From contig DASVHW010000043.1 of NCBI GenBank assembly GCA_036382395.1, positions 7,678-71,677 of the forward strand: 64,000 nucleotides of DNA, read 5' to 3'. Under the pieces are notes generated by a model. It searched no databases. It was given only the letters and a program-made list of their open reading frames with translations, and was not told where the DNA came from. A program made the position numbers and the translations under genes. This stretch comes from Candidatus Binatia bacterium (GTDB lineage Bacteria > Desulfobacterota > Binatia > HRBIN30). Each line of letters starts with the position of its first letter. Position 1 is the first letter of the stretch. Positions 1 through 21,174 of this stretch are shown piece after piece.

Positions 1-178
1 ACGCGTGATCTTTGGAGCACCGGCGGCAGTGCAGATCTTCTGGCCGGGAAACCGCGCGTTCCTACCGGCGGCCCTGGGCGAATGCCTCATCGTCACGGCA
101 AAAAAATCAGGATGACGCTGCCCACCAGCCCTCGACACGAACGCCGCTACGATCTATGAGGTTGGAGGCTTTCGATCC

Positions 179-3100
179 GTGATGAAATTCCTCCGTTCGT
201 TGTGGTCCAGCCCTCGCCTGTGGGTCGTCGTAATCGTCGTCTGTGCGGCGGCGGTGCGGTTGATCCACATCGAGTGGGATGAGAACCACTTCTTCCACCC
301 CGACGAACGCGCGGTGGCGTTTTCGGTGCAACGGCTGTCATTCCGGCCGCTGCAGATGGATCCCGACTTCTTCGCCTACGGGTCGCTGCCCATCTACCTG
401 GCAAAAATCACCAGCAGTGCTTTGGCGCTCGTCGATCCGCATGCGGCAACCTATGACGGCGTCATCGTCAACGGGCGGCGTGTATCCGCCGTCATCGGGG
501 CGCTCACGGTTTTCCTGCTGATCATCCTGGGCAGTCGGCTGTACGACCGCAGCGTCGGGCTGTTGTCGGGCGTGCTGTTGGCCGCCTGCGCCCTCCATTT
601 GCAGAACTCGCGCTTCATGACCGTGGACGTCACGCTGACGTTCGTCGTCCTGCTGGCGTTGTACCTCCTCGTGCGGGTTGCCACCGAGGGCCGGCTGACG
701 CACTTCATCCTGGCGGGCATAACCATCGGCTTGGCGACCGCCACCAAGTTCAGCGCCATGCCGCTCTTTCTGCCGCTGGGCATCGCCACCTTACGTCGCC
801 TCTGGGTGGAGCGCCGATTCTTCCCGATCGCCGCTCGCTGCGGCCTCGCGGTAGTGGCAGCGGTCTTGGCATTTGCGCTGGCCGAACCATACGCCGTGCT
901 CCGTTTCGGCCGTTTCTACCATGACATCCTGGAACAGAGCCACATGGTGCGCAATGCGGGGACGTTCCCCTACACCACCCAGTACATGGGAACGCCGAAG
1001 TACTGGTACGACCTCGAGCAGCTGATCATCTGGGGCATGGCCCCGGCACTGGGATTGGCCGCGGTGTGGGGAACCGCGACCCGGGTGGTGGCGGGATTCC
1101 GGGAGCGCCGGATCGAGGAATGGGTCCTGCTCTCGTGGGTCGTCCCGTTTTTCCTGATCACCGGCTGGTTCGAGGTGAAGTTTCCGCGTTATCTGCTGCC
1201 GATCTATCCGCTCATGATCCTCTGGGCGGCGGAGTGGCTGGTCCGCAAGTACCGGAGCGGGACACTCTTCGGCCGCCTCACCGCCCCGCTGGTGGTGGTC
1301 GGTACGCTGGCGGCGGCCAGCGCTTTCATGTCGATCTACACGCGGCCGTTCACCGAAGTCACCGCGTCGCAATGGGCCTACCGCCACATCCCATCGGGCA
1401 GCAAGATCCTCACGCAGGACTGGGACGAAGGCTTCCCGATGTCGTTGCCGCTCCCCGGAGCCCAGGCGGAACGCTACCGTGTGGTACCCTTCGGATACTA
1501 TGAGCAGCCGGACAGCTCGTCCAAGGTCCAGCGGCTCAGCCAAGAGCTGGCGAGCGCCGATTACATCGTCTTCCAGACCAAGCGACTGTACGGTGCGGTG
1601 ACTCGCGCCCCGGAGCGCTTTCCGCTGACCACCAACTACTTCTACGAGCTGTTCGCCGGCGATCTCGGCTACACGTTAGAGCAAGAAGTGGCGGCGCGGC
1701 CGGGGCTCTTCGGCTTCGAGATTCCGGACGAGTTGGCGGACGAGTCGCTCACGGTCTACGACCATCCGAAAGTCTTGATCTTTCGCAACACCGAGCGTCT
1801 GGCCGCGCCCGTCATCGCGGAGAAGATCCTGCGCGGCCTTCCTTCGCGGCCGCTGACTCGGAATGATCTCCTGCTGGCGCGTCCCAGCGGTGGCCTACCG
1901 CTGGAAACGACCGGCGCCGCGCCCCCCATTCAGTCGAGCCTTCTCGCACTGGTCTTGTTTGCGGCGCTGGTGGAGATCCTGAGTCTGGCCGCCTATCCGG
2001 TATTGCGTGTGTGGCTGACCGGCGTTGGCATCCTGGCGTTGAGCAAAACGCTCGGCGTACTGCTCTTTGCCTACCTTTCCTGGCTGATGATCAGCCTAGG
2101 CGCGGCCGATTTCACTCAAGGAGCGCTCAGCGCCATGGCATTCGGGCTGGCTGCCGTTGGCGCGTTGATGTGGCGGCGCACTCGCGTTCCACTGTCGCGC
2201 GGGGAGATCATCTCCACCGAGGCGCTGTTCTGGGGCGCGTTCGCCTATTTTCTTGTCGTGCGCATGTACAACCCCGAAGTCTACTGGGGCGAGAAGCCGA
2301 TGGACTTCTCTTTTCTGAACACTCTGACCCGCACGACCACGCTGCCGCCGGCGGAGCCCTGGTTCGCCGGCTCGCCCCTGCAGTACAGCTACTTCGGCCA
2401 CTACACCGTCGCCGCGTTGGGCAAGACGCTGCACCTCGATCCAGCGCTCACCTTCAATCTCGGCATTGCACTGATTGGCGGACTGACGGCGGTGGCGGCG
2501 TTTTCTGTCGGCGCGGTGGTTACGGGCCAGTGGCAAACGGGCCTGTTGGCGGCCTTCTTCGTTGCCTTGATCGGCAATCTCGCAGGCCCGCGGGAATGGT
2601 TCGCCCGCCACGCCATCGGCTTCGATTACTTTTGGGCAACATCGCGCGTCATCCGGGATACGATCAACGAGTTCCCGTTGTGGAGCTTCTTGTTCGCGGA
2701 TCTGCACGCCCACGTGCTGGTCATGCCGATCTCGTTGACGTTCCTGTGTCTCACCGTGTTGTGGGTGCGCACGCACGTGCTGCAGTCGCGCCAGCAGCGC
2801 CCCCGAGGCACGACTCTGGCGCTCCTGGTTCTGCTGTGCCTGACGTTGGGCGCCATCATGGTGACCAACACCTGGAGCACTCCCACTTACATTCTGTTCT
2901 TCGTCTTTTTGCTGGGCACACTCTGGCTCACCGAAGCGGAGCACGGAGGGTGGCTGGGCTTTCTGTTCGGCGGCATCGCCCGGGTTGGTATTCCGAGCGC
3001 CCTGCTCGTGGTTGGCGCCTATGTGCTTTTCCATCCGTACTGGAGCCACTTCGTGCGGGCAGAAGGCGCATGGTTGGGCTGGGAGCGTCTCGGGCCTGAC

Positions 3101-4957
3101 AAGCTGGTCCAGGGTTATGACTTTCTGACCGTGTTCGGTCTGTTTCTGTTCGTCCTAGTGCCCTTCGTGCTGGCGCTCTGGACGCGCAGCATCCGGCGGG
3201 GAGAGGAACCGCTCGGTGTTGGCCGGTCGTTGTTACTCATCGCCACGATCGCGCTGATACTAGTCAGCCTGGCGATCTCCACGCGGGTGTTCTCCGCCAT
3301 TCTGTTTCTGCTGACCTTACGTCCCCTGCTGGCGTTCAACACGGAACGCCGCTGGCGCATTCCGTTGACCATGGCGGCATTTGCCTTCGCCATCACCGCG
3401 GGCTGCGATCTCGTGTACGTGTGGGATCGCATGAACACCATCTTCAAGTTCTATCTGGAAGGATGGTTCTTGCTGGCCATTGCCGCTGCGGTCGCCGCCG
3501 GCGCACTCTGGAACGGCGCCGTGCGGCTGCCGTGGTTTCGGCCTATCTGGAAGGTCGCGCTCTCGCTGCTCATCGCCGTGGCGCTGTTCACTGCCGCAAC
3601 TGACACACTCGGGGTGATCCGCACCAACCGCATGCCGACCCCAAAACCGACGCTTGACGGCATGGCGTATCTCCGGGAGAAGGCCCCGTTCGAGTTGGCC
3701 GCGTTCGAGTGGTTGAACCGGCATATTCAAGGCATCCCGGTGATCTTGGAAGCGCACGGTGATTCGTACCAGGAATTCACCCGCGTCTCCATGAACACGG
3801 GCCTGCCGACGGTGCTGGGCTGGGAGTATCACGTCTTCCAGCGCGGCCACCCGCAGGCCGAAATCACTCGCCGCAAGAGCGACATCGAGTCGGTGTACAC
3901 CAGCAACAGCAAGGACAAGGTGGCGGCGTTGCTGCAACGCTATCACGTCGCCATGGTGTTCGTCGGAGCCCTGGAGCGTCGGGTGTACGCCGGTGGCAAC
4001 CTCGAGCGCTTCACGCAATGGAGCGACTTGCTGACCCCGGTGTACCGCAATCCCGGAGTCACGATCTTCGCGGTGAACGGCCGCTTTACGGGAACTATCC
4101 CGGTGACCACGATCGAGGACATTGCGCAGCCGGCGCCCGAGGAAGGAGCACCGCAGGACGCCCCCGGCAAGCTGCATCAGCCGCGCGGCGTGGCCGCGAC
4201 GCCGGAGGGCGATATCGTGGTGTGCGACTTCGGCAACAATCGTATCCAGGAGTTTGCCCGCGACTTGAGTTTCGTACGCGAATGGGGAACCCCAGGCCAG
4301 TTGCCAGGGCAGTTCAAGGAACCCTGCGGCATCGCTGTCAGTCCGAACGGTGAGGTCTTTGTTGCCGACACCTGGAATCATCGCGTGCAGGTGTTCTCCA
4401 AGGCAGGGGAGTACGTCCGCGAATGGGCAACCAGCTTCTATGGTCCACGCGGTGTGGCAGTGGACTCCACCGGGGCGGTGTTCGTGGCTGACACCGGCAA
4501 CAATCGCATCGTGCGCTTCGCTGCCGATGGACAGAAGGAGATGGAGTGGGGAGGAAAGGGATCGGAGCCGGGCCGCTTTCTCGAGCCGGTGGGGCTGACC
4601 GCCGATGCGGCCGGCACGGTCTACGTCTGCGACAACGGCAACGGCCGGCTACAGTTGTTCGGTCGCGACGGGCGTTTCGTCGGTGCCTTCCCGGTGGCCG
4701 GGTGGGAGAGCAAGGTGTATTCGGAACCCAACGTGGCTGTCGACCCGTCCGGCACGATCTGGGTGACCGTGCCGGGAGCCAAAGAGGTGCGCAACTATGA
4801 CCGGACCGGCAAGTTGTTGCGCACCATCACCGCTCAGAACACTCCCGGCGTGAGCTTCGGCATCCCCATGGGAATCACTTACCACGCCGCCGGCCATGCA
4901 ATGATCATCAGCGATCTCGATCACCGCCTGGTGCGCATCCCGCTGGCGCCACAGTGA
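179..4957 (+). CDS. Very large polytopic membrane protein (1592 aa). It has an N-terminal GT-C-type glycosyltransferase domain (PMT/ArnT, GT39-like; FHPDE motif), a second multi-TM domain (possibly DUF2298-like) and a C-terminal NHL-repeat six-bladed beta-propeller.
   Basis: Long ORF with GTG/ATG start at 179/182. Hydrophobic N-terminus with a 'FFHPDERAV' DE-type GT-C loop motif. Second TM-rich block carries 'EFPLWSFLFADLHAH'. C-terminus has repeated 'VCDFGNNRIQEF / VADTWNHRVQVF / VADTGNNRIVRF / VCDNGNGRLQLF' NHL blades. Confidence 0.65.
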   Translation: MMKFLRSLWSSPRLWVVVIVVCAAAVRLIHIEWDENHFFHPDERAVAFSVQRLSFRPLQMDPDFFAYGSLPIYLAKITSSALALVDPHAATYDGVIVNGRRVSAVIGALTVFLLIILGSRLYDRSVGLLSGVLLAACALHLQNSRFMTVDVTLTFVVLLALYLLVRVATEGRLTHFILAGITIGLATATKFSAMPLFLPLGIATLRRLWVERRFFPIAARCGLAVVAAVLAFALAEPYAVLRFGRFYHDILEQSHMVRNAGTFPYTTQYMGTPKYWYDLEQLIIWGMAPALGLAAVWGTATRVVAGFRERRIEEWVLLSWVVPFFLITGWFEVKFPRYLLPIYPLMILWAAEWLVRKYRSGTLFGRLTAPLVVVGTLAAASAFMSIYTRPFTEVTASQWAYRHIPSGSKILTQDWDEGFPMSLPLPGAQAERYRVVPFGYYEQPDSSSKVQRLSQELASADYIVFQTKRLYGAVTRAPERFPLTTNYFYELFAGDLGYTLEQEVAARPGLFGFEIPDELADESLTVYDHPKVLIFRNTERLAAPVIAEKILRGLPSRPLTRNDLLLARPSGGLPLETTGAAPPIQSSLLALVLFAALVEILSLAAYPVLRVWLTGVGILALSKTLGVLLFAYLSWLMISLGAADFTQGALSAMAFGLAAVGALMWRRTRVPLSRGEIISTEALFWGAFAYFLVVRMYNPEVYWGEKPMDFSFLNTLTRTTTLPPAEPWFAGSPLQYSYFGHYTVAALGKTLHLDPALTFNLGIALIGGLTAVAAFSVGAVVTGQWQTGLLAAFFVALIGNLAGPREWFARHAIGFDYFWATSRVIRDTINEFPLWSFLFADLHAHVLVMPISLTFLCLTVLWVRTHVLQSRQQRPRGTTLALLVLLCLTLGAIMVTNTWSTPTYILFFVFLLGTLWLTEAEHGGWLGFLFGGIARVGIPSALLVVGAYVLFHPYWSHFVRAEGAWLGWERLGPDKLVQGYDFLTVFGLFLFVLVPFVLALWTRSIRRGEEPLGVGRSLLLIATIALILVSLAISTRVFSAILFLLTLRPLLAFNTERRWRIPLTMAAFAFAITAGCDLVYVWDRMNTIFKFYLEGWFLLAIAAAVAAGALWNGAVRLPWFRPIWKVALSLLIAVALFTAATDTLGVIRTNRMPTPKPTLDGMAYLREKAPFELAAFEWLNRHIQGIPVILEAHGDSYQEFTRVSMNTGLPTVLGWEYHVFQRGHPQAEITRRKSDIESVYTSNSKDKVAALLQRYHVAMVFVGALERRVYAGGNLERFTQWSDLLTPVYRNPGVTIFAVNGRFTGTIPVTTIEDIAQPAPEEGAPQDAPGKLHQPRGVAATPEGDIVVCDFGNNRIQEFARDLSFVREWGTPGQLPGQFKEPCGIAVSPNGEVFVADTWNHRVQVFSKAGEYVREWATSFYGPRGVAVDSTGAVFVADTGNNRIVRFAADGQKEMEWGGKGSEPGRFLEPVGLTADAAGTVYVCDNGNGRLQLFGRDGRFVGAFPVAGWESKVYSEPNVAVDPSGTIWVTVPGAKEVRNYDRTGKLLRTITAQNTPGVSFGIPMGITYHAAGHAMIISDLDHRLVRIPLAPQ

Positions 4958-4972
4958 GCTGACCCGGCACCC

Positions 4973-7609
4973 ATGCACGCAACCGAGGCCACCCAGGCTC
5001 CAAGGATGCAAACGACTCATGCGCCGCTGACGTCGTCCACGCCAGTCAGGTGGCGAGGGCTGCGGATACTGCTGCTCGTGGCCGCGCTGGCGAGCGCCGC
5101 CGCAGGCCAGTATTGGCTCAGCATCCGGCACGTCGCGCTCTGGTCAGCGCCAGCATGGATGGCCGCGCTGGTCTGCTTCATCCTTCTGTACATCCTCGGA
5201 CGCGATGCTCGTGAACTCCCTTCTCCGAACGACGGTGCGGGCTCACGGTATGCGCAGTGGGGTTGGCTAGCGCTGGTGCTGGCTGTCGGCGTCTTCTTCA
5301 CCGTCTTTCGCCTCAATCAGTTCCCGCCGGGGTTGAATCACGACGCCGCCTACGAGGGCTTGTACGCCATCCGTATTCTCAACGGACTGCCCTATACGCC
5401 GTACACTCCAGAGGCCTGGGGTCGAGAAACGTTCACCTTCTATCTCCGGGCACTCAGCGTGCTGCTCCTCGGCCCGACGCGGCTGGCGGTCACGCTGCCG
5501 TCGACGGTGGCCGGCATCTTCATTCTGCCCTTCTTCTTCGTCTGGGCACGCAAGATGTTCGGCGCACGCTTCGGCCTGATGGCGACGCTCCTCCTCGGCG
5601 TCTCGGGTTGGCACCTGGTCTTCAGCCGCACCGGCTGGCGTTCCGATTTCCAGCCGCTGTTCATGACCATCACCTGTTGTTTTTTCATACGCGGCATGGA
5701 CACCGGTCGTGCGCTGGATTTCGCCCTCAGTGGAATCGGCTTGGCCGCGGCCTTGAACACCTACAACGGCGCGCGTCTCTTCCCGCTGCTTTTCCCGCTC
5801 TGGCTCGTTGCCGTCCTGCTGCAGTCCTGGCACTGGCGCGGATTCCTCCGCCAGTACTGGCACGGTCTGCTGTCCATGGCGGTGGCCTTCGGCATCGCCG
5901 TGGCGCCGTTGGCCTGGTACGCGGTACATAATTGGGAGGTCTTCCAGGGCCGGGCGCACGCGTTGGCGGGCGCCAGCACGCTGGTTGGAGCCCTCAAGGT
6001 TACGGCGCTGCTGTTCAACTACCGGGGAAATGGCGATGACTTTTTCATCGATACGCCGGCGCTTGAATACCCCGCCGCGATATTCCTGGCCTTTGGCATC
6101 TTGTGGGGCCTCGCCCGGATCCGCGACGAGCGCGTGCAGTTTGTCTTGCTGGGACTGGTGATCAACGCTGCCCCCGGCCTGGTGAGCAAGCCGAATATGA
6201 ACCGGGACATCGGCACGATGCCGTTCGTCTACTTCTTCGCCGCCTTGGGAGCCATGTTCTTCGCCACGCAGATCAGGCGGCTCATCCCTCGCGTGGGCCA
6301 TGTGCTGGCCTTGGCGTTCCTGGTGGTCGCCGGCGCTTCGGCACTGCAAGCGACGTTTGCACAGTACCTGGGTCAGCACCGGCGGGCCGTATGGGGCTAC
6401 TACCCCGAGACCACCGTGCTCGGAAACTACATCAAGACACTGGTACCGCAGTACAACATCTGGGTCGGTGGCGCGAATTTTCCGCGCGACGCCTTGACCT
6501 ATCTCTCGTACACCGGCCAAGTCGACCCGATGCAGCGCAACTACACCTGGCTGGATGATGTCACCGTGCTGTTGCAGATGAGCCCGGGGCTCGCGGCCAG
6601 CAAGGGACTGGCGTTCGTCTTGGCGACCAACGAGGAACCGAGCAGAACGGTCCTGCGCCAATTGGAGCAGCGCTATCCGCAGCACCAGGTAGTCGACGTA
6701 CGTTACCCGGAAGAGAACGGCCCGGTCTTCGCCAGGGCGCTACTGGTAAGTCCCGAGACTGCGACCGAAACGCCGGCACCAGCGACCGCCCCAAAACCCG
6801 CAGAGCCGCCGACTCCCATCGGACAAGTACATCAGCCGCGCGGGGTAGCGGCGACCGGCAATGGCCATGTCTTCGTGTGCGACTTCGGCAACAACCGCAT
6901 TCAGGAGTTCGGACGTGATCTGAACCCTGTGCGGCAATGGGGCGGCAGCGGCCAGACGCCCGGACGGTTCAACCAACCCTGTGGCGTGGCGGTGGATCCC
7001 GCTGGACAAGTCTTCGTCGCCGACACATGGAACCACCGTGTCCAGGTCTTCTCCGCGGAAGGCAATTTCGTGCGCGCGATGGCGGCGGATTTCTACGGAC
7101 CGCGCGGCATCGCGGCGGACGCGAACGGCAGCGTATTCGTCGCCGACACGGGAAACAACCGGATCGTGCGCTTGTCGGCGACCGGCCAGAAGGAGAAGGA
7201 GTGGGGCGGTAAGGGCTCAGAGCCGGGACGGTTCCTGGAGCCGGTGGGCCTGGCGGTGGACGGCACTGGGCAGGTGTACGTGTGCGACAACGGCAATGGG
7301 CGGCTGCAGACTTTTACCCGCGACGGGGAATTGCTGAGTCAGTTCCCGGTGCCGGGATGGCAAAGCGGGGTGTATTCCGAACCCTACGTGACTCTCGATC
7401 CGCGCGGCAACATTTGGGTCACGGTGCCGAGCGCAAAAGAGGTCCGCAGCTATGACCGCGCTGGGAAGTTGTTGCGTACCATCACGGGACAGGGCACCGG
7501 TGGCGTGACCTTCGACACGCCGATAGGCATCGCGTACAGCACCGCCGCGCGCGAGTTGATCGTCGCCGACCTCGCCGACCGCGTGGTGCGCATCCCGGAC
7601 AGCCGGTGA
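4973..7609 (+). CDS. Membrane glycosyltransferase (GT-C, ArnT/PMT-like) fused to a C-terminal NHL-repeat beta-propeller (878 aa). Paralog of the upstream gene.
   Basis: ATG at 4973, only 15 nt after the upstream stop. About 560 aa of multi-TM ArnT-like domain, then an NHL domain ~75% identical in protein (~80% nt) to the C-terminus of the 179..4957 product, with the same blade motifs. Confidence 0.65.
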   Translation: MHATEATQAPRMQTTHAPLTSSTPVRWRGLRILLLVAALASAAAGQYWLSIRHVALWSAPAWMAALVCFILLYILGRDARELPSPNDGAGSRYAQWGWLALVLAVGVFFTVFRLNQFPPGLNHDAAYEGLYAIRILNGLPYTPYTPEAWGRETFTFYLRALSVLLLGPTRLAVTLPSTVAGIFILPFFFVWARKMFGARFGLMATLLLGVSGWHLVFSRTGWRSDFQPLFMTITCCFFIRGMDTGRALDFALSGIGLAAALNTYNGARLFPLLFPLWLVAVLLQSWHWRGFLRQYWHGLLSMAVAFGIAVAPLAWYAVHNWEVFQGRAHALAGASTLVGALKVTALLFNYRGNGDDFFIDTPALEYPAAIFLAFGILWGLARIRDERVQFVLLGLVINAAPGLVSKPNMNRDIGTMPFVYFFAALGAMFFATQIRRLIPRVGHVLALAFLVVAGASALQATFAQYLGQHRRAVWGYYPETTVLGNYIKTLVPQYNIWVGGANFPRDALTYLSYTGQVDPMQRNYTWLDDVTVLLQMSPGLAASKGLAFVLATNEEPSRTVLRQLEQRYPQHQVVDVRYPEENGPVFARALLVSPETATETPAPATAPKPAEPPTPIGQVHQPRGVAATGNGHVFVCDFGNNRIQEFGRDLNPVRQWGGSGQTPGRFNQPCGVAVDPAGQVFVADTWNHRVQVFSAEGNFVRAMAADFYGPRGIAADANGSVFVADTGNNRIVRLSATGQKEKEWGGKGSEPGRFLEPVGLAVDGTGQVYVCDNGNGRLQTFTRDGELLSQFPVPGWQSGVYSEPYVTLDPRGNIWVTVPSAKEVRSYDRAGKLLRTITGQGTGGVTFDTPIGIAYSTAARELIVADLADRVVRIPDSR

Positions 7610-7637
7610 GCCGGAGGCGGACAGTGCGCCTCGAATC

Positions 7638-8141
7638 CTACTGCGACACCTCACTGTCGTAGGACAGCACGACGAGCACCTGACCTGCTTCGACCATATC
7701 GCCCGCCGAGACGCGTAACTCGCTGACCGTACCGGTGGCCTCGGCCACCAGGCGGTTCTCCATCTTCATCGCTTCCAGGATCAGCAAACCGTCGCCGGCC
7801 ACAATGTGCTGGCCCGGTTGCACCAGGGCTTCGAGCACTCGGCCCGGCATCGGGGCGGTGATTTCGGGAGACGCGACCGTCGCGACCCGGTGCGCCGACG
7901 CGCCACTCTCGGACACGAACTGATAGACCTCACCATCGACGGCGACCAACCGGTCCCGGCCGTTGCGCACCAAGTCGACGCGGTATTGCCGCCCGTCGAC
8001 GACGACAAAGAGCGTCGCATCATCCAGGTAGTGCGCTTCGACCACGTGCTCGGCACCATCCAGACCGACGCGATAGGCACCACCGTCGGACTGGACGTCG
8101 ACAGCGACATGGTGCTGCTTATGACGGAGCGAGATCCGCAT
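7638..8141 (-). CDS. Biotin carboxyl carrier protein (BCCP) / biotinyl-domain subunit of an acyl-CoA carboxylase.
   Basis: C-terminal biotinyl domain with the 'EAMKMEN' biotinylation motif. ATG at 8141 preceded by AAGAGG. It lies in the same reading frame as the upstream biotin carboxylase, separated only by a TAG plus 4 codons. Confidence 0.8.
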   Translation of the reverse strand: MRISLRHKQHHVAVDVQSDGGAYRVGLDGAEHVVEAHYLDDATLFVVVDGRQYRVDLVRNGRDRLVAVDGEVYQFVSESGASAHRVATVASPEITAPMPGRVLEALVQPGQHIVAGDGLLILEAMKMENRLVAEATGTVSELRVSAGDMVEAGQVLVVLSYDSEVSQ

Positions 8142-8153
8142 GGAGCCTCTTTG

Positions 8154-9647
8154 CTACCCCTGCCCCACACGCCAACTGCCAAGGGTCGTCCATGGCGAAC
8201 AGGCCGCTGAAGCTCCCGGCTGCGCCTGTGTGGATGGCCGGCTCCGGAGCAAATCGATGGCGGCGGCAATGGCGGCAATCGTCCGATGAAGCTCCCGGCC
8301 AGTCCACGAGGGGAAATGGTCGGCGATGAAATGGGTGTGCGTCTCGCCGCGAACGAACGCGGGGTGTTCCAGAACTTCGAGCAGGAAGGGAATATCGGTG
8401 GTGCAGCCGAGGATGACGTAATCCTTCAGCGCCACGAGCATCCGCCGCCGTGCCGCGTCGCGATTCTCTGCCCAGACTGACACTTTGGCGAGCAACGGGT
8501 CGTAATACATGGGCACCGCGTACCCTGCCCTGATTCCCGAATCGACGCGAATGCCCGGCCCACTCGGCTCACGCAGGTGTGCGATCGTCCCCGGGCTGGG
8601 GAGGAACTGTTGCGACGGGTCCTCGGCGCAAATCCGGCATTCGATGGCGTGTCCGCGGCTGCCAACGTCGTGCTGCCGCAACCACAGCGGTTCGCCGGCG
8701 GCGAGCCGGAGTTGCGCCTGCACGATGTCGATACCGGTGACCCACTCGGTGATGGGATGCTCGACCTGCAAGCGGGTGTTCATTTCGAGAAAATAGAAGC
8801 GCCCATCCGCATCGAGCAGGAACTCGACCGTCCCGGCGTTCCGATAGCCGGAGCAACGGGCGACCGCGACGGCGGCTTCGGTCATTTGCTGTCGGAGTGC
8901 GGGGTCAACGGCGGGCGAGGGAGTTTCTTCAATGATCTTCTGGTGGCGGCGTTGAACCGAGCACTCGCGCTCCCCGAGATGGACGACGGTGCCTGAATTG
9001 TCGGCCAGAATCTGGATCTCCACATGTCGTGGCCGTTCGAGGTAGCGCTCGAGAAACAGCCGGCCATCCCCAAACGCTCCAAGCGCCTCGCGCCCGGCAG
9101 CACTGAAGGCTGGCAGCAACTCGGTTTCATCGCGAACGATGCGCATGCCTTTGCCACCGCCGCCCGCTGCGGCCTTGATGATCAACGGGTAGCCGAGACG
9201 GCGGGCTGCTGCCACCAGCTGGGCGCTGCGCTGCGGCGGATTCTCCTCTGCCGGCACAACCGGGACACCGGCGCGCGCGACAGTCCGGCGCGCCAGGGTC
9301 TTGTCACCCATCATGGCGATCGACTCCGGGCTCGGACCGATGAACACCATACCGGCCTCTTCGACCGCTCGAGCGAAGGACGCGTTCTCCGCCAGAAAGC
9401 CGTAGCCCGGATGCACCGCATCCGCACCCGTCGTGCGGGCGGCCTCGATGATGCGTGGAATATTCAGATAGCTCTCGGCACTGGGTGGTGCGCCGACGCA
9501 GACCGCCGTATCCGCGTGCTCGACATGCGGCGCCTGCGCATCCGCCGCCGAATAGATGGCAACGGTTTCGATCCCGGTCTCGCGGCAGGCACGCATCACG
9601 CGGATGGCGATCTCGCCGCGGTTGGCAATGAGGACTCTGTGGAACAT
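8154..9647 (-). CDS. accC: Biotin carboxylase (alpha-subunit BC domain of an acetyl/propionyl/methylcrotonyl-CoA carboxylase).
   Basis: N-terminus 'MFHRVLIANRGEIAIRVMRA' and full ATP-grasp BC signature ('EMNTRLQVEHPITE'). ATG at 9647. Confidence 0.9.
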   Translation of the reverse strand: MFHRVLIANRGEIAIRVMRACRETGIETVAIYSAADAQAPHVEHADTAVCVGAPPSAESYLNIPRIIEAARTTGADAVHPGYGFLAENASFARAVEEAGMVFIGPSPESIAMMGDKTLARRTVARAGVPVVPAEENPPQRSAQLVAAARRLGYPLIIKAAAGGGGKGMRIVRDETELLPAFSAAGREALGAFGDGRLFLERYLERPRHVEIQILADNSGTVVHLGERECSVQRRHQKIIEETPSPAVDPALRQQMTEAAVAVARCSGYRNAGTVEFLLDADGRFYFLEMNTRLQVEHPITEWVTGIDIVQAQLRLAAGEPLWLRQHDVGSRGHAIECRICAEDPSQQFLPSPGTIAHLREPSGPGIRVDSGIRAGYAVPMYYDPLLAKVSVWAENRDAARRRMLVALKDYVILGCTTDIPFLLEVLEHPAFVRGETHTHFIADHFPSWTGRELHRTIAAIAAAIDLLRSRPSTQAQPGASAACSPWTTLGSWRVGQG

Positions 9648-9738
9648 GCTTGAAATAAGCTCTCAGCCCTCAGCTGTCAGCCCTTCCATATCTCTCGCCG
9701 CATTCCCTTGCTGATAGCTGACTGCTGACCGCTTCTCC

Positions 9739-11346
9739 TCACATCCGGAACACGCCCGGTCGCGTATCGGGGATCGGGCCGTGGGCGGCAGCCGCAAGGG
9801 CGAGGCCGAGGACGTGCCGGGTGTCGATGGGGTCAAGCACGCCGTCATCCCAGAGCCGCCCGGTCGAATAGTAGGGACTGCCTTCTCGTTCGTACTTCGC
9901 GAGGATGGGCGCCATGAACGCTTCTTGCTCCGCCGGCGTCAGTGTCTGCTGCCTGCTGGCGAGCTGCTGCAGCTTGACGGTAAGCAGCGTGCTGGCGGCC
10001 TGTTCGCCTCCCATCACCGATATGCGGCCGCCGGGCCACATACACAGCAGGCGCGGGCTGTAGGCACGGCCGCACATCCCGTAATTGCCCGCACCATTCG
10101 AGGCCCCGATGATCACCGTAAACTTCGGCACGGCCACCGTGCTGACCGCGTGCACCATTTTCGCGCCATCCTTGGCGATGCCACCTTGCTCGTACTTCTT
10201 TCCAACCATGAAACCGGTGATGTTCTGCAGAAAGATCAGGGGGATTTTCCGTTGCCCGCACAGCTCGATGAAGTGCGTCCCTTTGAGCGAGGACTCGGAG
10301 AACAGCGCACCGTTGTTCGCGACGAGGCCAACCAGATAGCCGTGGATACGGGCAAAGCCGGTGACCAGCGTGGTGCCGTAGAGCGGCTTGAACTCATGCA
10401 GTCGGCTGCCGTCCACCAGGCGCGCGATGATTTCGCGGACGTCGTACTGCCTTCTCGCATCGCATGGGAGGATGCCGTAGATCTCGCGCGCTTCGTACGC
10501 AGGCTCCTCCGGTGTCTGCTGATCCAGCACCGAGGGTGGCGCCGGACCCAGATTCTCAAAGATTGAGCGCGTAATTTCGATGGCGTGTTGGTCATTGGCG
10601 GCGAGATAATCGGAGACCCCGGAGATGCGCGTGTGCACATCACCGCCGCCGAGCTCCTCCGCCGACACCTCTTCGCCGGTGGCGGCCTTCACCAGCGGCG
10701 GTCCTCCCAGAAAAATCGTACCGACACCGCGCACGATCACGTTTTCGTCGCACATGGCGGGCACATACGCCCCGCCAGCCGTGCATGAGCCCATGACGAC
10801 CGCGATCTGCGCCATGCCGGCAGCGGAGAGGCGCGCTTGATTGAAAAAGATCCGCCCGAAATGCTCGCGGTCGGGGAAGATCTCCGCCTGCAGGGGCAGG
10901 AATGCACCGCCCGAGTCCACCAGGTACACACACGGCAGGCGGTTCTCCAACGCGATCTCTTGGGCGCGGAGGTGCTTCTTCACCGTCATCGGGAAGTAGG
11001 TACCGCCCTTGACCGTCGCATCGTTCGCCACAATCACCGTCTGCCGGCCACTGACGGTGCCGATACCCGTGACGATACCGGCCCCAGGAGCTTCGTTGTC
11101 GTACAGGCCGTACGCCGCCAGCGGCGACAGCTCCAGAAACGGCGTGTCCGGGTCGATCAGCGCGTCGATACGTTCGCGGGCGAGCAGTTTCCCGCGCTCT
11201 TTGTGGCGTCGCCGCAACTCTTCCGGTCCGCCGGCCCGCACCTCGAGCAGCCGCGCACGCAACTCCGCAGCCAGCGACTCGTTGTAGCGGCGGTTCTCTT
11301 CGAACCCCGGGTCAGTGAGGCGAACCTTAGTTTCAATCCGGCGCAT
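9739..11346 (-). CDS. Acyl-CoA carboxylase carboxyltransferase (beta) subunit, methylcrotonyl-CoA carboxylase beta-like.
   Basis: Carboxyl-transferase domain ('[20 protein letters not shown]', 'GGAYVPAM'). The track ORF extends to 11418, but the conserved N-terminus 'MRRIETKV' starts at the ATG at 11346. Confidence 0.85.
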
Positions 11347-11502
11347 TGGAGAACAGATACCAGATCGAGGACAGGGTCGGCCAGCGGCCCGAAGGCCATC
11401 TTCGCCGCACCCATCCATGGCGAGTTTCCGGCCCGTGTTTCCGGCCCGTTGCCACCAGGGCGAACTCGTGATAGCAAAATCCAGTTTTTGCCTGCAAGGT
11501 CA

Positions 11503-12175: not shown

Positions 12176-14071
<1,896 letters not shown>

Positions 14072-14128
14072 TCAGCAGGTCTCATGTAGCAAAACCAAGG
14101 CGGGAAAAAAGCAACATCGACCACTGCC

Positions 14129-14329
14129 CTAGCTCACCACCACCGCCCACAAGGTCCACGCAACGACACCCCACAGAGCCAAGCTGATAAGTGTTCCGGT
14201 AACAAACCCGAAGAATGGAATGTCACGCGTATCCTCGGGCGCCAGATCGTCAACTCGCCATGCCGCTCGGCTGTAAACCAGTTCCATAACTACCCTCCCG
14301 GTATTTCCGTAAAGCAATGGCTGTGCCAC
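14129..14329 (-). CDS. Small hypothetical membrane protein (66 aa) between bioA and bioD.
   Basis: ORF with a hydrophobic C-terminal helix 'FFGFVTGTLISLALWGVVAWTLWAVVV'. No recognised family. Support is positional only. Confidence 0.25.
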   Translation of the reverse strand: MAQPLLYGNTGRVVMELVYSRAAWRVDDLAPEDTRDIPFFGFVTGTLISLALWGVVAWTLWAVVVS

Positions 14330-14429
14330 CAGCGGTATTCGCTAACATAGGGCGCCGCCGAGCGAAATATCTTCTAATCAGAAGGCGAATACTGCAAGGA
14401 ATTTCCTAATTTTGCCGGAAGAATATGGT

Positions 14430-15794
14430 TCATGGCGCTTCTGTAACCTGGATGATCGAATCACGGACTACATCGCTGAGGAAATCCACCTGGTCTTCGG
14501 TGATGCAAAGCGGCGGCATCAACACAATTACGTTGCCGAGCGGCCGCAGAATGATGCCCCGTTTTCGAGCTTCCATGATGGTGCGCACGCCGACACGATC
14601 TGATGCCGCAAACGGATGTCGATTGTCACAATTTCGTACCAATTCGATACCAACCATTAGTCCTAGCTGTCGTATATCACCGACATGGCGTAACGGCAGG
14701 AAGTCACTCTCAAGTTTGCTGCGCAGTTGCTGGCTGCGCCGAATCACATTCTCGAGCACCCCTTCGTTCTCAAAAACCTGCAAACTAGCGAGTGCCACCG
14801 CGCAAGCAAGTGCATTACCGGTGTAAGTATGGCCGTGAAAGAAGGCCTTGAACTCTTCGTATGGCGCGAGGAAGGTCTGGAAGATCTCTTCCGTAGCGAA
14901 GGTCGCGGCCAGGGGAAGATACCCGCCAGTGATGCCCTTGCCGACACACATGAGATCCGGTTCGACCTGTTCGTGTTCAACAGCGAACATCTTCCCCGTC
15001 CGGCCAAACCCGGTGGCGACCTCGTCGCAGATCAGCAAGACACCATGCTGGCGGGTCAGCTGGCGCAGCCCCCGTACGTAGCCAGCGGGCTGCGACCACA
15101 TGCCGGCGGCACCCTGCATCAGCGGCTCGATGACAAGGGCGGCAATTTCGTCGCCTTTGCTTCCCAAGAGCGCCGCAGCCTCCGCCAGTGCGCTTTGCAG
15201 CGCATCCTCTTCATTCATCCCACGCTGCCAGCGGTAGACGTGGGGTGGATTCAGCCGATGGCAGGGGAAGAGCGCGGACTTGAAAAAGCGGTGGAAGGTC
15301 TCCGAGTACCCCACGCTGACGGCGCCGAGTGTATCGCCGTGGTATGACTCGGTCAGGGCCGCAAAGCGCGTCCGTTTCGTCTCTCCTCGGAGTTGCCAGT
15401 ACTGCAGCGCCAACTTCAGCGCGATTTCCACCGCCGTCGCGCCAGCATCAGAAAAGAACACCCGAGTCAAACCGCGTGGGGCGATATCGGCTAATCGTTT
15501 GGCGAGGATGATCGACGGCACGCTCGCCAGTCCCAGCAATGTGGAGTGCGCGATTTGCTCCGCCTGCTCGCGCAGAGCCCTGTCCAGCTCGGGATGGCGA
15601 TGCCCGTGCACGTTGCACCAGAGTGACGACACCCCATCCAGGTAGCGCGTGCCGGAGACGTCAATCAGGTACGCCCCTTCGCCGCTCGCAATGATCAGCG
15701 GTTCCTCGGCCAGCCACTCCTGCATCTGGGTAAACGGATGCCACAGATGGGCGTGGTCCCATCGCGCCAGCTCGGCGGGGTCGAAGCGGGTCAC
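14430..15794 (-). CDS. bioA: Adenosylmethionine-8-amino-7-oxononanoate aminotransferase.
   Basis: Class-III PLP aminotransferase with a BioA-type N-terminus 'WHPFTQMQEW...'. GTG start at 15794 overlaps the bioF stop (GTGA). Confidence 0.9.
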   Translation of the reverse strand: MTRFDPAELARWDHAHLWHPFTQMQEWLAEEPLIIASGEGAYLIDVSGTRYLDGVSSLWCNVHGHRHPELDRALREQAEQIAHSTLLGLASVPSIILAKRLADIAPRGLTRVFFSDAGATAVEIALKLALQYWQLRGETKRTRFAALTESYHGDTLGAVSVGYSETFHRFFKSALFPCHRLNPPHVYRWQRGMNEEDALQSALAEAAALLGSKGDEIAALVIEPLMQGAAGMWSQPAGYVRGLRQLTRQHGVLLICDEVATGFGRTGKMFAVEHEQVEPDLMCVGKGITGGYLPLAATFATEEIFQTFLAPYEEFKAFFHGHTYTGNALACAVALASLQVFENEGVLENVIRRSQQLRSKLESDFLPLRHVGDIRQLGLMVGIELVRNCDNRHPFAASDRVGVRTIMEARKRGIILRPLGNVIVLMPPLCITEDQVDFLSDVVRDSIIQVTEAP

Positions 15795-16957: not shown

Positions 16958-17225
16958 CGGTTCCCGACGATTAGACTTGCGTGCTCGGGCTGTCAACGTC
17001 CCCACGGCCAGGCGAACTTGCCTTTGCCGGCGTTGATGGCGCGGCCGCATCGCCCTCGCCATCGGCGCGCGCAGGTTGCGGTCGCGGGCGACGCCCGGCC
17101 GTTCCACTACCGCATCGTGGGCTTCCTTCTCTGGAACTACGCCGATGGCGGGCAGCGGGGTACTCGCTCTAAGCCGTAGGGGCTGCTACAGAACCCTCGG
17201 ACTTTGTCATCGTCGAAATCTGAAT

Positions 17226-20721: not shown

Positions 20722-21174
20722 ATGCCTGACCGTCCCCCGCACATCCGGCGGAGCCGACGCACCGACTTCAACGCGGTGATGAAGCTGCTGGCCACCAGCG
20801 GCATTCCGGTCCCGCCGCCCGATCGCGCCACACTACGGCGCTTCCGGCACATCGTTGCCGACCTCGGGACTGACTTCTACCTCGCTTTGGTTGACGGTAC
20901 GCCGGTCGGTCTCGTACACGTAACCTATGCGCGTGCACTCACGCATGGACCCCGGGCCGGACTCAACCAGCTTGTGGTCGCCGACTCGTTTCGCCACCGC
21001 GGCATCGGCGCAGCGCTCCTCGATTTCGCCGCGCGCCGGGCCCGCAAACGCGGCTGCACGATTCTCTCTTGCGCGTTGCCGGCCGCGGGCGCCTCTCTCC
21101 GTGAGCTCTTTGCGAAGACCGGTCTTGAACCGGGCGGCGAATGGTTCGTCAAGAGGCTGCGCAGTGATGAGTGA
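20722..21174 (+). CDS. GNAT-family N-acetyltransferase.
   Basis: Acetyl-CoA binding motif 'FRHRGIGAALLDFAARRARKRGC'. 150 aa. Stop overlaps the gdh start. Confidence 0.7.
   Translation: MPDRPPHIRRSRRTDFNAVMKLLATSGIPVPPPDRATLRRFRHIVADLGTDFYLALVDGTPVGLVHVTYARALTHGPRAGLNQLVVADSFRHRGIGAALLDFAARRARKRGCTILSCALPAAGASLRELFAKTGLEPGGEWFVKRLRSDE

What the first reader, a model, noticed from the sequence alone, without database searches (positions are those of the whole stretch)
179..7609. Tandem giant paralogs: GT-C membrane glycosyltransferase domains fused to near-identical NHL beta-propellers
Two adjacent genes (1592 aa and 878 aa, 15-nt spacer) each join a polytopic PMT/ArnT-like GT-C domain to a C-terminal six-bladed NHL domain. 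The NHL domains are ~75% identical in protein and ~80% in nucleotides, while the membrane domains differ: one is GT39-like with FHPDE plus a second DUF2298-like TM block, the other ArnT-like. A GT-C enzyme carrying a periplasmic NHL propeller suggests a protein- or glycan-recognising glycosyltransferase pair, and the duplicated 3' segments could drive recombination between the two genes. This architecture is not a textbook family.
Basis: partly seen in the sequence, partly recalled or inferred. Interest (0 to 1): 0.6.

Follow-up and report, generated by a model that had tools for sequence, protein, structure and literature searches.

The report
Paired membrane glycosyltransferases with NHL propellers
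Two adjacent genes of an uncultured Binatia bacterium encode large membrane sugar-transferase-like proteins, each ending in a periplasmic six-bladed NHL propeller; they are real genes and the tail of an operon conserved across this lineage, but its function is untested and the design is a variation on a known theme.

Summary
Both ORFs, the 15-nt spacer and all named domains are real. The NHL domains are 69% identical in protein and 71% in DNA, not 75%/80% and not "near-identical". They are old paralogs, not an assembly artefact.

The pair is the 3' end of an operon that the window cuts: standalone DUF2298, sometimes a GT4, a methyltransferase, then A and B. This operon recurs across Binatia. 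A-like proteins with NHL also occur in Acidobacteriota. The NHL-less core is in Chloroflexota and Bdellovibrionota.

B's NHL is confined to Binatia, is sometimes absent, and is never monophyletic. In the window's lineage it nests among A-type NHLs, which points to an old A-to-B gene conversion.

The most likely function is periplasmic glycosylation from a polyprenyl-phosphate sugar, with the NHL propellers holding the acceptor. No family member is characterised, and the GT-C status of DUF2298 is only hinted at. I rate it a new variant of a known kind, of moderate interest.

The parts
2..115 (+). 3' end (last 37 codons plus stop) of the upstream class-I SAM methyltransferase gene. The window cuts the operon here.
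   Evidence: Frame-2 translation RVIFGAPAAVQIFWPGNRAFLPAALGECLIVTAKKSG* matches the C-terminus of the L003 methyltransferase (Methyltransf_23, 2.5e-25)..
179..4957 (+). Gene A, 1592 aa from GTG 179 (1591 aa from ATG 182). Order: PMT_2-like GT-C, periplasmic domain, DUF2298/TIGR03662 module, C-terminal domain, NHL propeller.
   Evidence: More than 120 full-length ortholog clusters at 51-94% identity, with source names mostly Candidatus Binatia.
179..1354 (+). A N-terminal PMT/ArnT-like GT-C module (aa 1-392). The putative catalytic D42-E43 lies in HFFHPDER (nt 302-307).
   Evidence: PMT_2 52.8 bits and PMT 48.5 bits. Profile against PDB: Pmt1 6p25 E 2.9e-7 and ArnT 5ezm E 1.2e-5, with PDE aligned to ArnT PDE. 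The Asp is at least 90% conserved across phyla. This module was not modelled.
1355..1939 (+). A periplasmic alpha/beta linker domain (aa 393-587). It matches no Pfam family.
   Evidence: AlphaFold model. No Pfam hit. It always accompanies the fusion across phyla (the linkA HMM).
1940..3622 (+). A DUF2298 / Chlor_Arch_YYY polytopic membrane module (aa 588-1148). Invariant loop-1 motif WGEKPMD (E705-D709, nt 2291-2305). YSYFG 'YYY' motif (aa 736-740). FADLHAH (D841, H843, H845). DRMNTxFKF (aa 1083-1091).
   Evidence: DUF2298 4.6e-89 and TIGR03662 1.8e-143. Cross-phylum invariant residues. AlphaFold pLDDT 88.
3626..4123 (+). A periplasmic C-terminal domain of the YYY module (aa 1150-1315), highly conserved (W1178, E1191, GW1214-1215, H1218, R1232, E1266).
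   Evidence: Lies inside the TIGR03662 match (aa 589-1299). No Pfam family of its own.
4166..4942 (+). A six-bladed NHL beta-propeller (aa 1330-1588), preceded by a Pro-rich linker.
4958..4972 (.). 15-nt A-B spacer. No terminator-like site here, so the two genes are probably co-transcribed.
4973..7609 (+). Gene B, 878 aa (867 aa if it starts at ATG 5006). Order: ArnT-fold GT-C, periplasmic alpha/beta domain, NHL propeller.
   Evidence: AlphaFold pLDDT 94, pTM 0.83.
5054..6370 (+). B membrane GT-C domain (aa 28-466). Two extra N-terminal TM helices, then the canonical core. Invariant P118, G120, N122, D124 (D124 = nt 5342-5344) at the start of juxtamembrane helix 1. Also E152 and the NGDDFF loop (aa 353-358).
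6404..6772 (+). B periplasmic alpha/beta domain (aa 478-600). No family match.
6821..7597 (+). B six-bladed NHL beta-propeller (aa 617-875). It is 69% identical in protein and 71% in DNA to A's NHL, and is of the A type by phylogeny.
   Evidence: Phylogeny.

Best explanation
A and B are the last two genes of a conserved envelope-glycosylation operon of an uncultured Binatia (Binatota) bacterium: standalone DUF2298, an optional cytoplasmic GT4, a SAM methyltransferase, then A and B.

Proposed mechanism. The PMT/ArnT-like modules are inverting GT-C transferases. These are A's N-terminal module (D42/E43) and B (D124). Each would take a sugar from a polyprenyl-phosphate-linked donor at the periplasmic face of the inner membrane and transfer it to an acceptor. 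The DUF2298 modules probably add further catalytic or donor-handling sites of the same general design (E705/D709 on the first periplasmic loop). The C-terminal NHL propellers, tethered by Pro-rich linkers in the periplasm, would bind the acceptor (an envelope protein or glycan) and present it to the membrane-embedded sites. TPR repeats in TMTC enzymes, MIR domains in PMTs and carbohydrate-binding modules in EmbC/AftD are thought to do the same job.

History. B's NHL was copied from A's NHL by non-allelic gene conversion, or by re-acquisition, in the ancestor of the window's sub-lineage. This would give both enzymes the same acceptor-binding module.

Shown: gene structure; domain identities; the GT-C fold of B; conservation of the acidic loop-1 residues; operon conservation; phyletic distribution; the A-type origin of B's NHL.

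Inferred: periplasmic topology; catalytic competence; lipid-linked donor; acceptor binding by NHL; any role of DUF2298.
For: Domains and folds:
- Domain hits are above curated cutoffs.
- A's N-module is homologous to B's, and to Pmt1 and ArnT with PDE on PDE.

Conserved residues:
- D42 is at least 90% conserved across four phyla.
- D124 is invariant in 108 B relatives.
- E705, K706 and M708 are invariant and D709 at least 90% conserved in DUF2298 across phyla.

DUF2298 resembles the GT-C layout:
- D709 and D124 both sit at the N-terminus of the first juxtamembrane helix, each 30 residues before the second.
- The only hhalign signal between DUF2298 and PMT_2-like profiles superposes exactly that JM2-TM2-TM3 segment (E 4.5e-4, probability 33%).

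Topology:
- In B, every Arg/Lys-rich loop falls on the cytoplasmic side when the helices are counted from a cytoplasmic N-terminus. This puts the soluble domains and the NHL outside.

NHL type:

Operon and distribution:
- The same operon occurs in independent Binatia assemblies.
- A-like proteins carry NHL in 17/18 Binatia-like and 39/45 Acidobacteriota loci, and in 0/17 Chloroflexota or Bdellovibrionota loci.
- B carries NHL only in Binatia-like loci (10/18, against 0/45 in Acidobacteriota).

Origin of B's NHL:
- B-NHLs were never monophyletic (0 of 200 bootstraps). The window-lineage clade of A and B NHLs together had 70% support.
- Quartets of the window against distant genomes favour the (A,B | A,B) topology in 80-99.7% of bootstraps.
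- Window B-NHL is 59-61% identical to A-NHLs of L002, L015 and L020, but 39-40% to their B-NHLs. The B membrane domains of those loci are 54-59% identical to the window's.
- blastn with window B-NHL finds the A-NHL of L002 and L009, and no hit to their B-NHLs.
Against: - No member of DUF2298/TIGR03662, and no PMT_2+NHL protein, has been studied experimentally in the literature I could search.
- DUF2298 has no detectable relative among solved structures by sequence (best E 0.4).
- DUF2298 members hit no other Pfam family.
- No lipid-sugar synthase (a GT2 of the DPM1/ArnC/GtrB type) lies in the operon. The GT4 is a nucleotide-sugar enzyme and is absent from some loci.
- The acceptor is unknown.
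- The nearest named relative of the PMT-like modules, TIGR03663/Agl23, is reported as a lipid-linked-sugar flippase, not a transferase.
- The phylogeny uses neighbour-joining on about 260 columns, and B-NHLs evolve fast. The key clade has only 70% support.
Confidence: 0.55

Rival explanations
1. Lipid-carrier handling rather than transfer. The PMT-like modules of A and B act like haloarchaeal Agl23, translocating or delivering polyprenyl-phosphate-linked sugars across the membrane. Any transfer would be done by the DUF2298 modules or by other enzymes. The NHL domains only dock the complex to its target.
For: - Both modules give their best NCBIfam membrane hit to TIGR03663, now named 'flippase activity-associated protein Agl23'.
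- Purified Haloarcula hispanica Agl23 flips M5GN2-PP-Dol in proteoliposomes and rescues yeast rft1-delta (PMC11182771).
- From my memory of the TIGRFAMs description, not checked here: TIGR03663 and TIGR03662 proteins tend to be encoded side by side. That would make A a fusion of that pair.
Against: - The TIGR03663 scores are 28.5 and 27.2 bits against a cutoff of 126, so neither module is a member.
- The loop-1 Asp/Glu typical of catalytic GT-C enzymes is strictly kept.
- B's fold is closest to a proven transferase, ArnT.
- A flippase role and a transferase role are not mutually exclusive.
Confidence: 0.15
2. The NHL propellers are enzymes (a lyase, lactonase or esterase acting on a periplasmic glycan or lipid), not acceptor-binding modules. 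A and B would then be bifunctional, coupling glycosyl transfer to a second chemical step.
For: - Partial hits to SGL (gluconolactonase), Vgb_lyase and Phytase-like families.
- JGI names for B orthologs include 'streptogramin lyase' and 'sugar lactone lactonase YvrE'.
Against: - Vgb_lyase scores (43.7 and 37.6) are below its cutoff of 50. The NCBIfam Vgb models score 15-20 bits against 600.
- The best matches by a wide margin are non-enzymatic TRIM-type NHL domains and the PknD sensor domain.
- The invariant residues are the structural NHL-repeat positions.
- Metal-site residues were not checked directly.
Confidence: 0.08
3. Non-catalytic envelope scaffold or sensor. The membrane modules have lost transferase activity. 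The proteins serve as anchors that display NHL propellers in the periplasm for binding or signalling, as in PknD.
For: - The NHL domains resemble the PknD extracellular sensor domain.
- No function has been demonstrated for the family.
Against: - There is no cytoplasmic output domain.
- Loop-1 acidic residues and many other polar residues in periplasmic loops and membrane helices are strictly conserved across four phyla.
- The genes are linked in an operon with a GT4 glycosyltransferase and a methyltransferase.
Confidence: 0.07
4. Assembly artefact. The second NHL-bearing gene is a collapsed or chimeric duplicate created by the assembler.
For: None beyond the presence of a repeated 3' segment.
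Against: - The copies are only 71% identical, with a 20-nt maximum identical run and purifying-selection codon patterns (78%, 83% and 51% identity at codon positions 1, 2 and 3).
- The same A-B tandem occurs in at least a dozen independent assemblies from NCBI, JGI, ENA and Logan.
Confidence: 0.01

Closest known systems
ArnT (GT83, undecaprenyl-phosphate-L-Ara4N:lipid A transferase; PDB 5ezm/5f15)
   Same: - Profile hits come from both A's N-module (E 1.2e-5) and B (E 1.6e-3).
- The PDE motif after TM1 aligns with A's HPDE.
- ArnT likewise has a periplasmic C-terminal domain after the last TM helix.
   Different: - Only 12% identity, and no NCBIfam ArnT model hit.
- B has two extra N-terminal TM helices, a different periplasmic domain and an NHL propeller.
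- A adds a whole DUF2298 module.
- The acceptor is unlikely to be lipid A. Nothing links the operon to LPS modification.
Protein O-mannosyltransferases Pmt1/Pmt2 (GT39; PDB 6p25) and bacterial PMT_2 proteins
   Same: - The Pfam PMT and PMT_2 models hit A's N-module above cutoff.
- Pmt1 is the best PDB profile hit (E 2.9e-7).
- The conserved Asp-Glu on loop 1 is present.
- From general knowledge: a lipid-phosphate-sugar donor and a lumenal or periplasmic accessory domain that engages the acceptor.
   Different: - No MIR domain and no PMT_4TMC domain were detected.
- The match covers only aa ~96-231 of the Pfam model.
- Here the accessory domain is a C-terminal NHL propeller, not an intra-loop beta-trefoil.
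TMTC1-4 (GT105) and bacterial PMT_2+TPR proteins (from general knowledge; a PMT_2+TPR gene lies near the operon in L086)
   Same: Same design logic: a GT-C membrane transferase with a C-terminal repeat domain on the non-cytoplasmic side that is thought to select the protein acceptor.
   Different: The repeat domain is TPR (alpha-solenoid), not an NHL beta-propeller. No DUF2298 module. Not tested here beyond domain composition.
TIGR03662 Chlor_Arch_YYY / Pfam DUF2298
   Same: A's second membrane block is a full-length member (479.8 bits against cutoff 300; DUF2298 300 bits). The upstream standalone gene in relatives is also a member (503 bits).
   Different: - The family itself has no known function.
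- It comprises 6,429 clusters of representatives at 50% identity.
- Most members lack NHL. The C-terminal NHL addition is restricted to Binatia and Acidobacteriota.
TIGR03663 / Agl23 (Haloarcula hispanica)
   Same: A PMT-like polytopic protein. It gives weak hits from both A's N-module (aa 15-363) and B. It is the only experimentally studied relative of this neighbourhood of families.
   Different: Scores are far below the cutoff (28.5 and 27.2 bits against 126). Agl23 is archaeal, has no NHL, and is reported as a flippase for dolichol-linked sugars.
PknD extracellular NHL sensor domain (M. tuberculosis, PDB 1rwi) and TRIM-NHL domains
   Different: Here it is attached to glycosyltransferase-like membrane modules rather than to a kinase or an E3 ligase. 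The ligand is unknown in both bacterial cases.

Membership tests
GT-C glycosyltransferase superfamily, PMT_2 branch (PF13231): A N-module | Profile match above the curated cutoff | tested here: met
   PMT_2 52.8 bits (cutoff 26.1) and PMT 48.5 bits (cutoff 22.7).
GT-C glycosyltransferase superfamily, PMT_2 branch (PF13231): A N-module | Conserved acidic catalytic residue on the first extracytoplasmic loop just after TM1 | tested here: met
   HFFHPDER. D42 is at least 90% conserved across four phyla and aligns with the PDE of ArnT.
GT-C glycosyltransferase superfamily, PMT_2 branch (PF13231): A N-module | GT-C three-dimensional fold | not tested
   The N-module (aa 1-392) was outside the modelled fragment. 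Its fold is inferred only from homology to B (hhalign 96%).
GT-C glycosyltransferase superfamily, PMT_2 branch: B | Profile match above the curated cutoff | tested here: met
   PMT_2 31.0 bits against cutoff 26.1. The margin is small.
GT-C glycosyltransferase superfamily, PMT_2 branch: B | GT-C fold | tested here: met
   [not shown]
GT-C glycosyltransferase superfamily, PMT_2 branch: B | Conserved loop-1 acidic residue | tested here: met
   D124 is invariant in 108 relatives, at least 90% conserved in wider paralogs, and sits at the N-terminus of JM helix 1.
GT-C glycosyltransferases (all modules) | Uses a polyprenyl-phosphate- or diphosphate-linked sugar donor and transfers it on the non-cytoplasmic side | not testable with these tools
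   Needs biochemistry.
GT39 protein O-mannosyltransferase | MIR beta-trefoil domain in the large lumenal loop, plus the C-terminal PMT_4TMC module | tested here: not met
   No MIR or PMT_4TMC hit at E up to 0.01. A is therefore PMT-like, not a GT39 member.
ArnT (GT83) | Match to a curated ArnT model | tested here: not met
   No ArnT model among the NCBIfam hits. The only links are fold similarity and remote profile similarity.
TIGR03662 Chlor_Arch_YYY / DUF2298 | Full-length profile match above cutoff | tested here: met
   479.8 bits against 300.25 over model positions 3-726 of 727. DUF2298 300 bits against 27.8.
TIGR03662 Chlor_Arch_YYY / DUF2298 | YYYxG motif (recalled from the TIGRFAMs description) | tested here: met
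   The cross-phylum consensus is L.YYYFG. The window has YSYFG. Y736 and G740 are invariant and Y738 is at least 90% conserved.
DUF2298 as a GT-C fold family | Structural or profile similarity to established GT-C enzymes | tested here: inconclusive
   - No PDB sequence relative and no other Pfam family hit.
- hhalign gives 33% probability (E 4.5e-4) on the JM2-TM2-TM3 segment.
- The Asp-to-JM2 spacing is the same as in B.
TIGR03663 / Agl23 | Profile match above cutoff | tested here: not met
   28.5 bits (A) and 27.2 bits (B) against cutoff 126.25.
NHL-repeat six-bladed beta-propeller | NHL repeat profile hits and a six-bladed propeller fold | tested here: met
   [not shown]
Streptogramin B lyase (Vgb) / ScyF / SMP-30 lactonase (names attached to orthologs by some sources) | Match above the curated cutoffs | tested here: not met
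   - Vgb_lyase 43.7 and 37.6 bits against 50.
- Vgb(A)/(B) 15-20 bits against 600.
- ScyF 136 and 153 bits against 350.
- SGL exceeds its Pfam cutoff but only over a 38-80-residue stretch.

The most novel reading that the evidence does not exclude
The operon encodes a multi-site periplasmic glycan-assembly machine with four GT-C-type catalytic modules: the standalone DUF2298, A's PMT-like module, A's DUF2298 module, and B. It would build a lineage-specific envelope glycoconjugate of Binatia and Thermoanaerobaculia. DUF2298 would be a previously unrecognised glycosyltransferase family. The NHL propellers would act as shared acceptor clamps, and their sequence would be kept matched between the two enzymes by recurrent A-to-B gene conversion. 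If so, DUF2298/TIGR03662 (about 6,400 clusters at 50% identity) would gain its first function. NHL would also join TPR, MIR and carbohydrate-binding modules as an acceptor-selecting module of GT-C enzymes.
Probability: 0.2. Interest if true: 0.65.

Novelty: new variant of a known kind. Interest (0 to 1): 0.4.

Why it matters
GT-C enzymes build or decorate most extracytoplasmic glycoconjugates, including N- and O-glycoproteins, lipid A modifications and mycobacterial arabinans. How they choose acceptors is often decided by an appended soluble domain.

This locus shows an NHL propeller in that position. It sits on a protein that also fuses a PMT/ArnT-like module to DUF2298, a large family (thousands of clusters across Chloroflexota, Archaea, Bdellovibrionota, Acidobacteriota and Binatia) with no known function. 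The fusion and the conserved operon give a concrete and testable hypothesis for DUF2298. They also point to an unknown envelope glycosylation pathway in two abundant soil and sediment lineages with few or no cultured members.

The domain-level phylogeny gives a clean small example of concerted evolution confined to one domain of two adjacent paralogs.

Nothing here overturns current understanding. The value is as a lead for annotating a dark family.

Tried and rejected
1. Fold searches aimed at classifying DUF2298 failed.
   - The afdb50 library was unavailable.
2. A DUF2298+CTD profile against PDB sequences found nothing (best E 0.4).
3. Pfam at E up to 1 on 34 diverse DUF2298 members found only DUF2298.
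4. hhalign of shallow Binatia-only profiles showed no DUF2298/PMT_2 relation. Deeper profiles gave only a weak, though geometrically consistent, match.
5. hhalign among the three small periplasmic domains (A linker, A CTD, B alpha/beta domain) found no relation. None has a Pfam family.
6. Literature searches found no functional study.
   - Terms tried: DUF2298, TIGR03662, YYY domain, PF10060, COG5427, IPR018746, TIGR03663, GT-C+NHL, and Binatia+glycosyltransferase.
   - The 'YYY domain' hits concern an unrelated Y_Y_Y domain.
   - The Binatia ALG1 preprint concerns a different cytosolic enzyme.
7. Recent recombination between the two NHL-coding segments was considered and rejected. Sliding identity is 62-77%, there is no conversion tract, and the longest identical run is 20 nt.
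8. Assembly artefact: rejected (see the rival explanations).
9. The source annotations 'streptogramin lyase', 'YncE', 'PknD' and 'lactonase' for orthologs were rejected as family assignments. Scores fall below the cutoffs, or only the generic propeller matches.
10. The promoter and terminator scan gave nothing useful (0 promoter-like sites; the terminator-like sites lie inside coding sequence).
Full report
**What is in the sequence.** The window holds two co-directional ORFs at the stated coordinates. A runs 179..4957 and is 1592 aa from GTG. The ATG at 182 gives the 1591 aa of the closest ortholog. B runs 4973..7609 and is 878 aa. An ATG at 5006 would give the 867-aa product that JGI called. 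The two are separated by 15 nt. No terminator-like site lies in the spacer.

**Domain content.** Pfam and NCBIfam give the following for A:
- PMT_2 (52.8 bits) and PMT (48.5 bits) on aa ~96-231
- DUF2298 (300 bits) on aa 629-1099
- TIGR03662 'Chlor_Arch_YYY' (479.8 bits, cutoff 300) on aa 589-1299
- NHL (119 bits) at the C-terminus

For B they give PMT_2 (31.0 bits, cutoff 26.1) and NHL (124.5 bits).

**The similarity figures are not correct.** The NHL domains align without gaps over 259 residues at 69% identity. The coding DNA is 71% identical: 78%, 83% and 51% at codon positions 1, 2 and 3, against 34% expected at position 3 from composition. The longest identical run is 20 nt. These are old paralogs under purifying selection. 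They are not near-identical copies, they are not an assembly artefact, and they are not a plausible substrate for homologous recombination today.

**Organism and conservation.** A has more than 120 full-length ortholog clusters at 51-94% identity. Source names are mostly 'Candidatus Binatia', along with older 'Deltaproteobacteria' labels. The proteins are annotated as DUF2298, YYY-domain or GT39 proteins. Window nt 1-7694 is 91% identical to a Binatia MAG contig (L003, GCA_044450645.1).

**The operon.** In five independently assembled relatives the A-B tandem is conserved and preceded by the same genes:
- a standalone DUF2298/TIGR03662 protein of about 705 aa
- in some loci, a GT4 glycosyltransferase
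- a class-I SAM methyltransferase

Window nt 2-115 encode the last 37 residues of that methyltransferase. The window therefore starts inside the operon, and the finding is its 3' half. Downstream, the convergent biotin-carboxylase genes are not part of it.

**Phyletic distribution.** A scan of one genome per species found 590 relatives. I annotated the best 80 loci with HMMs built from my own module alignments.
- The core, PMT-like module + linker domain + DUF2298 + C-terminal domain, occurs in Binatia, Acidobacteriota (Thermoanaerobaculia, Holophagales), Bdellovibrionota and Chloroflexota.
- In three Bdellovibrionota-type loci the PMT-like module is a separate neighbouring gene.
- The C-terminal NHL on A is present in 17/18 Binatia-like and 39/45 Acidobacteriota loci. 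It is absent from all 17 Bdellovibrionota and Chloroflexota loci.
- A B-type gene with NHL occurs only in Binatia-like loci (10/18, against 0/45 in Acidobacteriota).
- Some Binatia carry B at the same operon position without any NHL (575-584 aa).
- The DUF2298+CTD segment alone finds 6,429 clusters of 50%-identity representatives. Their length classes correspond to standalone, linker-fused, PMT-fused, NHL-fused and doubled forms.

**Topology of B.** Counting helices from a cytoplasmic N-terminus puts every Arg/Lys-rich loop inside (aa 76-91, 193-199, 285-295, 382-388, 434-441). It puts the conserved polar loops, the alpha/beta domain and the NHL outside. D124 is invariant in 108 relatives and sits at the N-terminus of the first juxtamembrane helix.

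**A's N-terminal module.** It is homologous to B's membrane domain (hhalign 96%, E 2e-9). Its cross-phylum profile hits Pmt1 (E 2.9e-7) and ArnT (E 1.2e-5), with HPDE aligned on ArnT's PDE. This module was not modelled.

**The A fragment, aa 393-1592.** The model has pLDDT 88. It shows:
- a periplasmic alpha/beta linker domain
- one TM helix returning to the cytoplasm
- the DUF2298 module, whose fourth helix (aa 674-697) leads into a loop carrying the cross-phylum invariant WGEKPMD
- about twelve more helices
- a conserved C-terminal domain, a Pro-rich linker and the propeller

**Is DUF2298 a GT-C enzyme?** This stays open.
- For: D709 sits at the N-terminus of the first juxtamembrane helix, exactly 30 residues before the second. 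That is the same geometry as D124 in B.
- For: the only profile-profile signal (probability 33%, E 4.5e-4) aligns precisely the JM2-TM2-TM3 segments of the two models.
- For: invariant E705, K706, D841-x-H843-x-H845, R1084 and K1090 are the kind of residues that bind metal and phosphate in GT-C enzymes. This last point is inference.

**History of the two NHL domains.** The evidence that B's NHL derives from A's comes from several independent analyses.
- In 33 genome pairs, A-NHL is slowly evolving (57-79% identity to the window's). B-NHL is fast evolving (33-72%).
- Within-genome A-B identity falls from 65-71% in the window's sub-lineage to 32-45% in distant ones.
- The window's B-NHL is 59-61% identical to the A-NHLs of L002, L015 and L020, but only 39-40% to their B-NHLs. 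The B membrane domains of the same loci are 54-59% identical to the window's.
- Four-taxon tests of the window against distant genomes favour (A,B | A,B) over orthology in 80-99.7% of bootstraps.
- In a neighbour-joining tree of loci with verified gene adjacency plus Acidobacteriota, B-NHLs are never monophyletic (0/200). They fall into at least three groups. The window-lineage clade of A and B NHLs together has 70% support.
- blastn with the window's B-NHL finds the A-NHL of L002 and L009, and no hit to their B-NHLs.
- Third-position identity between the window's A and B copies (0.51) is slightly below that between window and L004 orthologs (0.54-0.61). It is about that of window against L002 or L009 (0.47-0.48).

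Taken together, B's NHL in this lineage was overwritten by, or re-acquired from, A's NHL before the window/L003/L004 group radiated and after it split from the L002-type lineages. Non-allelic gene conversion is the simplest mechanism, because the two segments are direct repeats 2.65 kb apart. One caveat applies: this is distance-based phylogeny on about 260 columns with strong rate differences between the two domains.

**Most likely function.** I favour the following, at confidence 0.55. The operon is an envelope glycosylation system in which the PMT/ArnT-like modules, and probably the DUF2298 modules, transfer sugars from polyprenyl-phosphate donors on the periplasmic face. The tethered NHL propellers would hold the acceptor. 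This mirrors the role of TPR repeats in TMTCs, MIR domains in PMTs and carbohydrate-binding modules in EmbC/AftD, all from general knowledge.

**What is shown and what is inferred.**
- Shown: the domain identities, B's GT-C fold, the conserved acidic residues and the operon linkage to a GT4 and a methyltransferase.
- Inferred: catalysis, the donor, the acceptor and the role of the NHL.

**Rivals.**
- An Agl23-like lipid-sugar flippase or handling role for the PMT-like modules. Agl23/TIGR03663 is their best named relative, but the scores are far below its cutoff.
- A catalytic NHL, as in PAL or the lactonases.
- A non-catalytic scaffold.

**Comparison with known families and novelty.** A and B pass the tests for PMT_2-type GT-C, and B also passes by fold. 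Both pass for the NHL propeller, and A passes for TIGR03662. They fail the tests for GT39 proper (no MIR or PMT_4TMC domains), ArnT, Agl23/TIGR03663, Vgb lyase and ScyF. No paper in the searchable library describes DUF2298 function or a GT-C+NHL fusion. The proteins are already in public databases under generic names. I therefore rate this a new variant of a known kind: a GT-C enzyme with an appended acceptor-side domain. It is of moderate interest, mainly because it offers a handle on a large uncharacterised membrane-protein family and on an unknown glycosylation pathway in Binatia and Thermoanaerobaculia.

Noticed in passing
window 7638-11418 (- strand): Genes for a biotin carboxyl carrier protein, a biotin carboxylase and a carboxyltransferase (an acyl-CoA carboxylase set) lie between gene B and larC. 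In the 91%-identical relative L003 this slot instead holds acetyl-CoA synthetase, thiolase, OB-fold and M78 peptidase genes. Similarity resumes at window 11434. This is a local gene-content swap between close relatives.
   Followed up: partly
window 12176-17107: larC (Ni insertion protein) is followed on the minus strand by bioD-like, class-III aminotransferase (bioA-like) and class I/II aminotransferase (bioF-like) genes, which together suggest a biotin-synthesis cluster.
   Followed up: no
window 21171-26123 (+): A 1650-aa large NAD-specific glutamate dehydrogenase (Bac_GDH_CD 7.6e-222, with its ACT and helical-motif domains).
   Followed up: no
window 36141-39744 (+): Complex I genes occur in fused form: NuoC+NuoD in one 583-aa ORF and NuoE+NuoF in one 620-aa ORF.
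   Followed up: no
L086 10887-18074; L002 21834-22829: A 2395-aa CLIPPER (DUF11)-repeat protein lies directly downstream of the NHL-less B gene in L086. A smaller CLIPPER gene lies 7 kb downstream of the operon in L002. These are possible surface acceptors of the glycosylation system. L086 also has a PMT_2+TPR gene just upstream.
   Followed up: no
L001 17329-20913: After B, this Binatia genome carries a third B-like membrane gene (818 aa; no Pfam hit, but it matches my modB HMM) and a YncE-like beta-propeller protein.
   Followed up: partly
L041-L069 (Acidobacteriota loci): In Thermoanaerobaculia the A-like+NHL gene is typically followed by separate large NHL-repeat ORFs and by NHL-less B-like genes. 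The propeller there is supplied as separate proteins rather than fused to B. ORF calls in these high-GC loci are stop-to-stop and overlap, so gene boundaries are approximate.
   Followed up: partly
L007, L010, L032, L036: Contigs labelled Margulisiibacteriota, Myxococcales or Deltaproteobacteria carry the Binatia-type operon at 41-68% identity to A. The record labels are probably loose, or the result of binning errors.
   Followed up: no
P0258-P0277 and similar: DUF2298 relatives of 1,900-2,750 aa have 3-6 matched stretches. They are giant proteins with two or more YYY modules, the second architecture class I recall from the TIGR03662 description.
   Followed up: no
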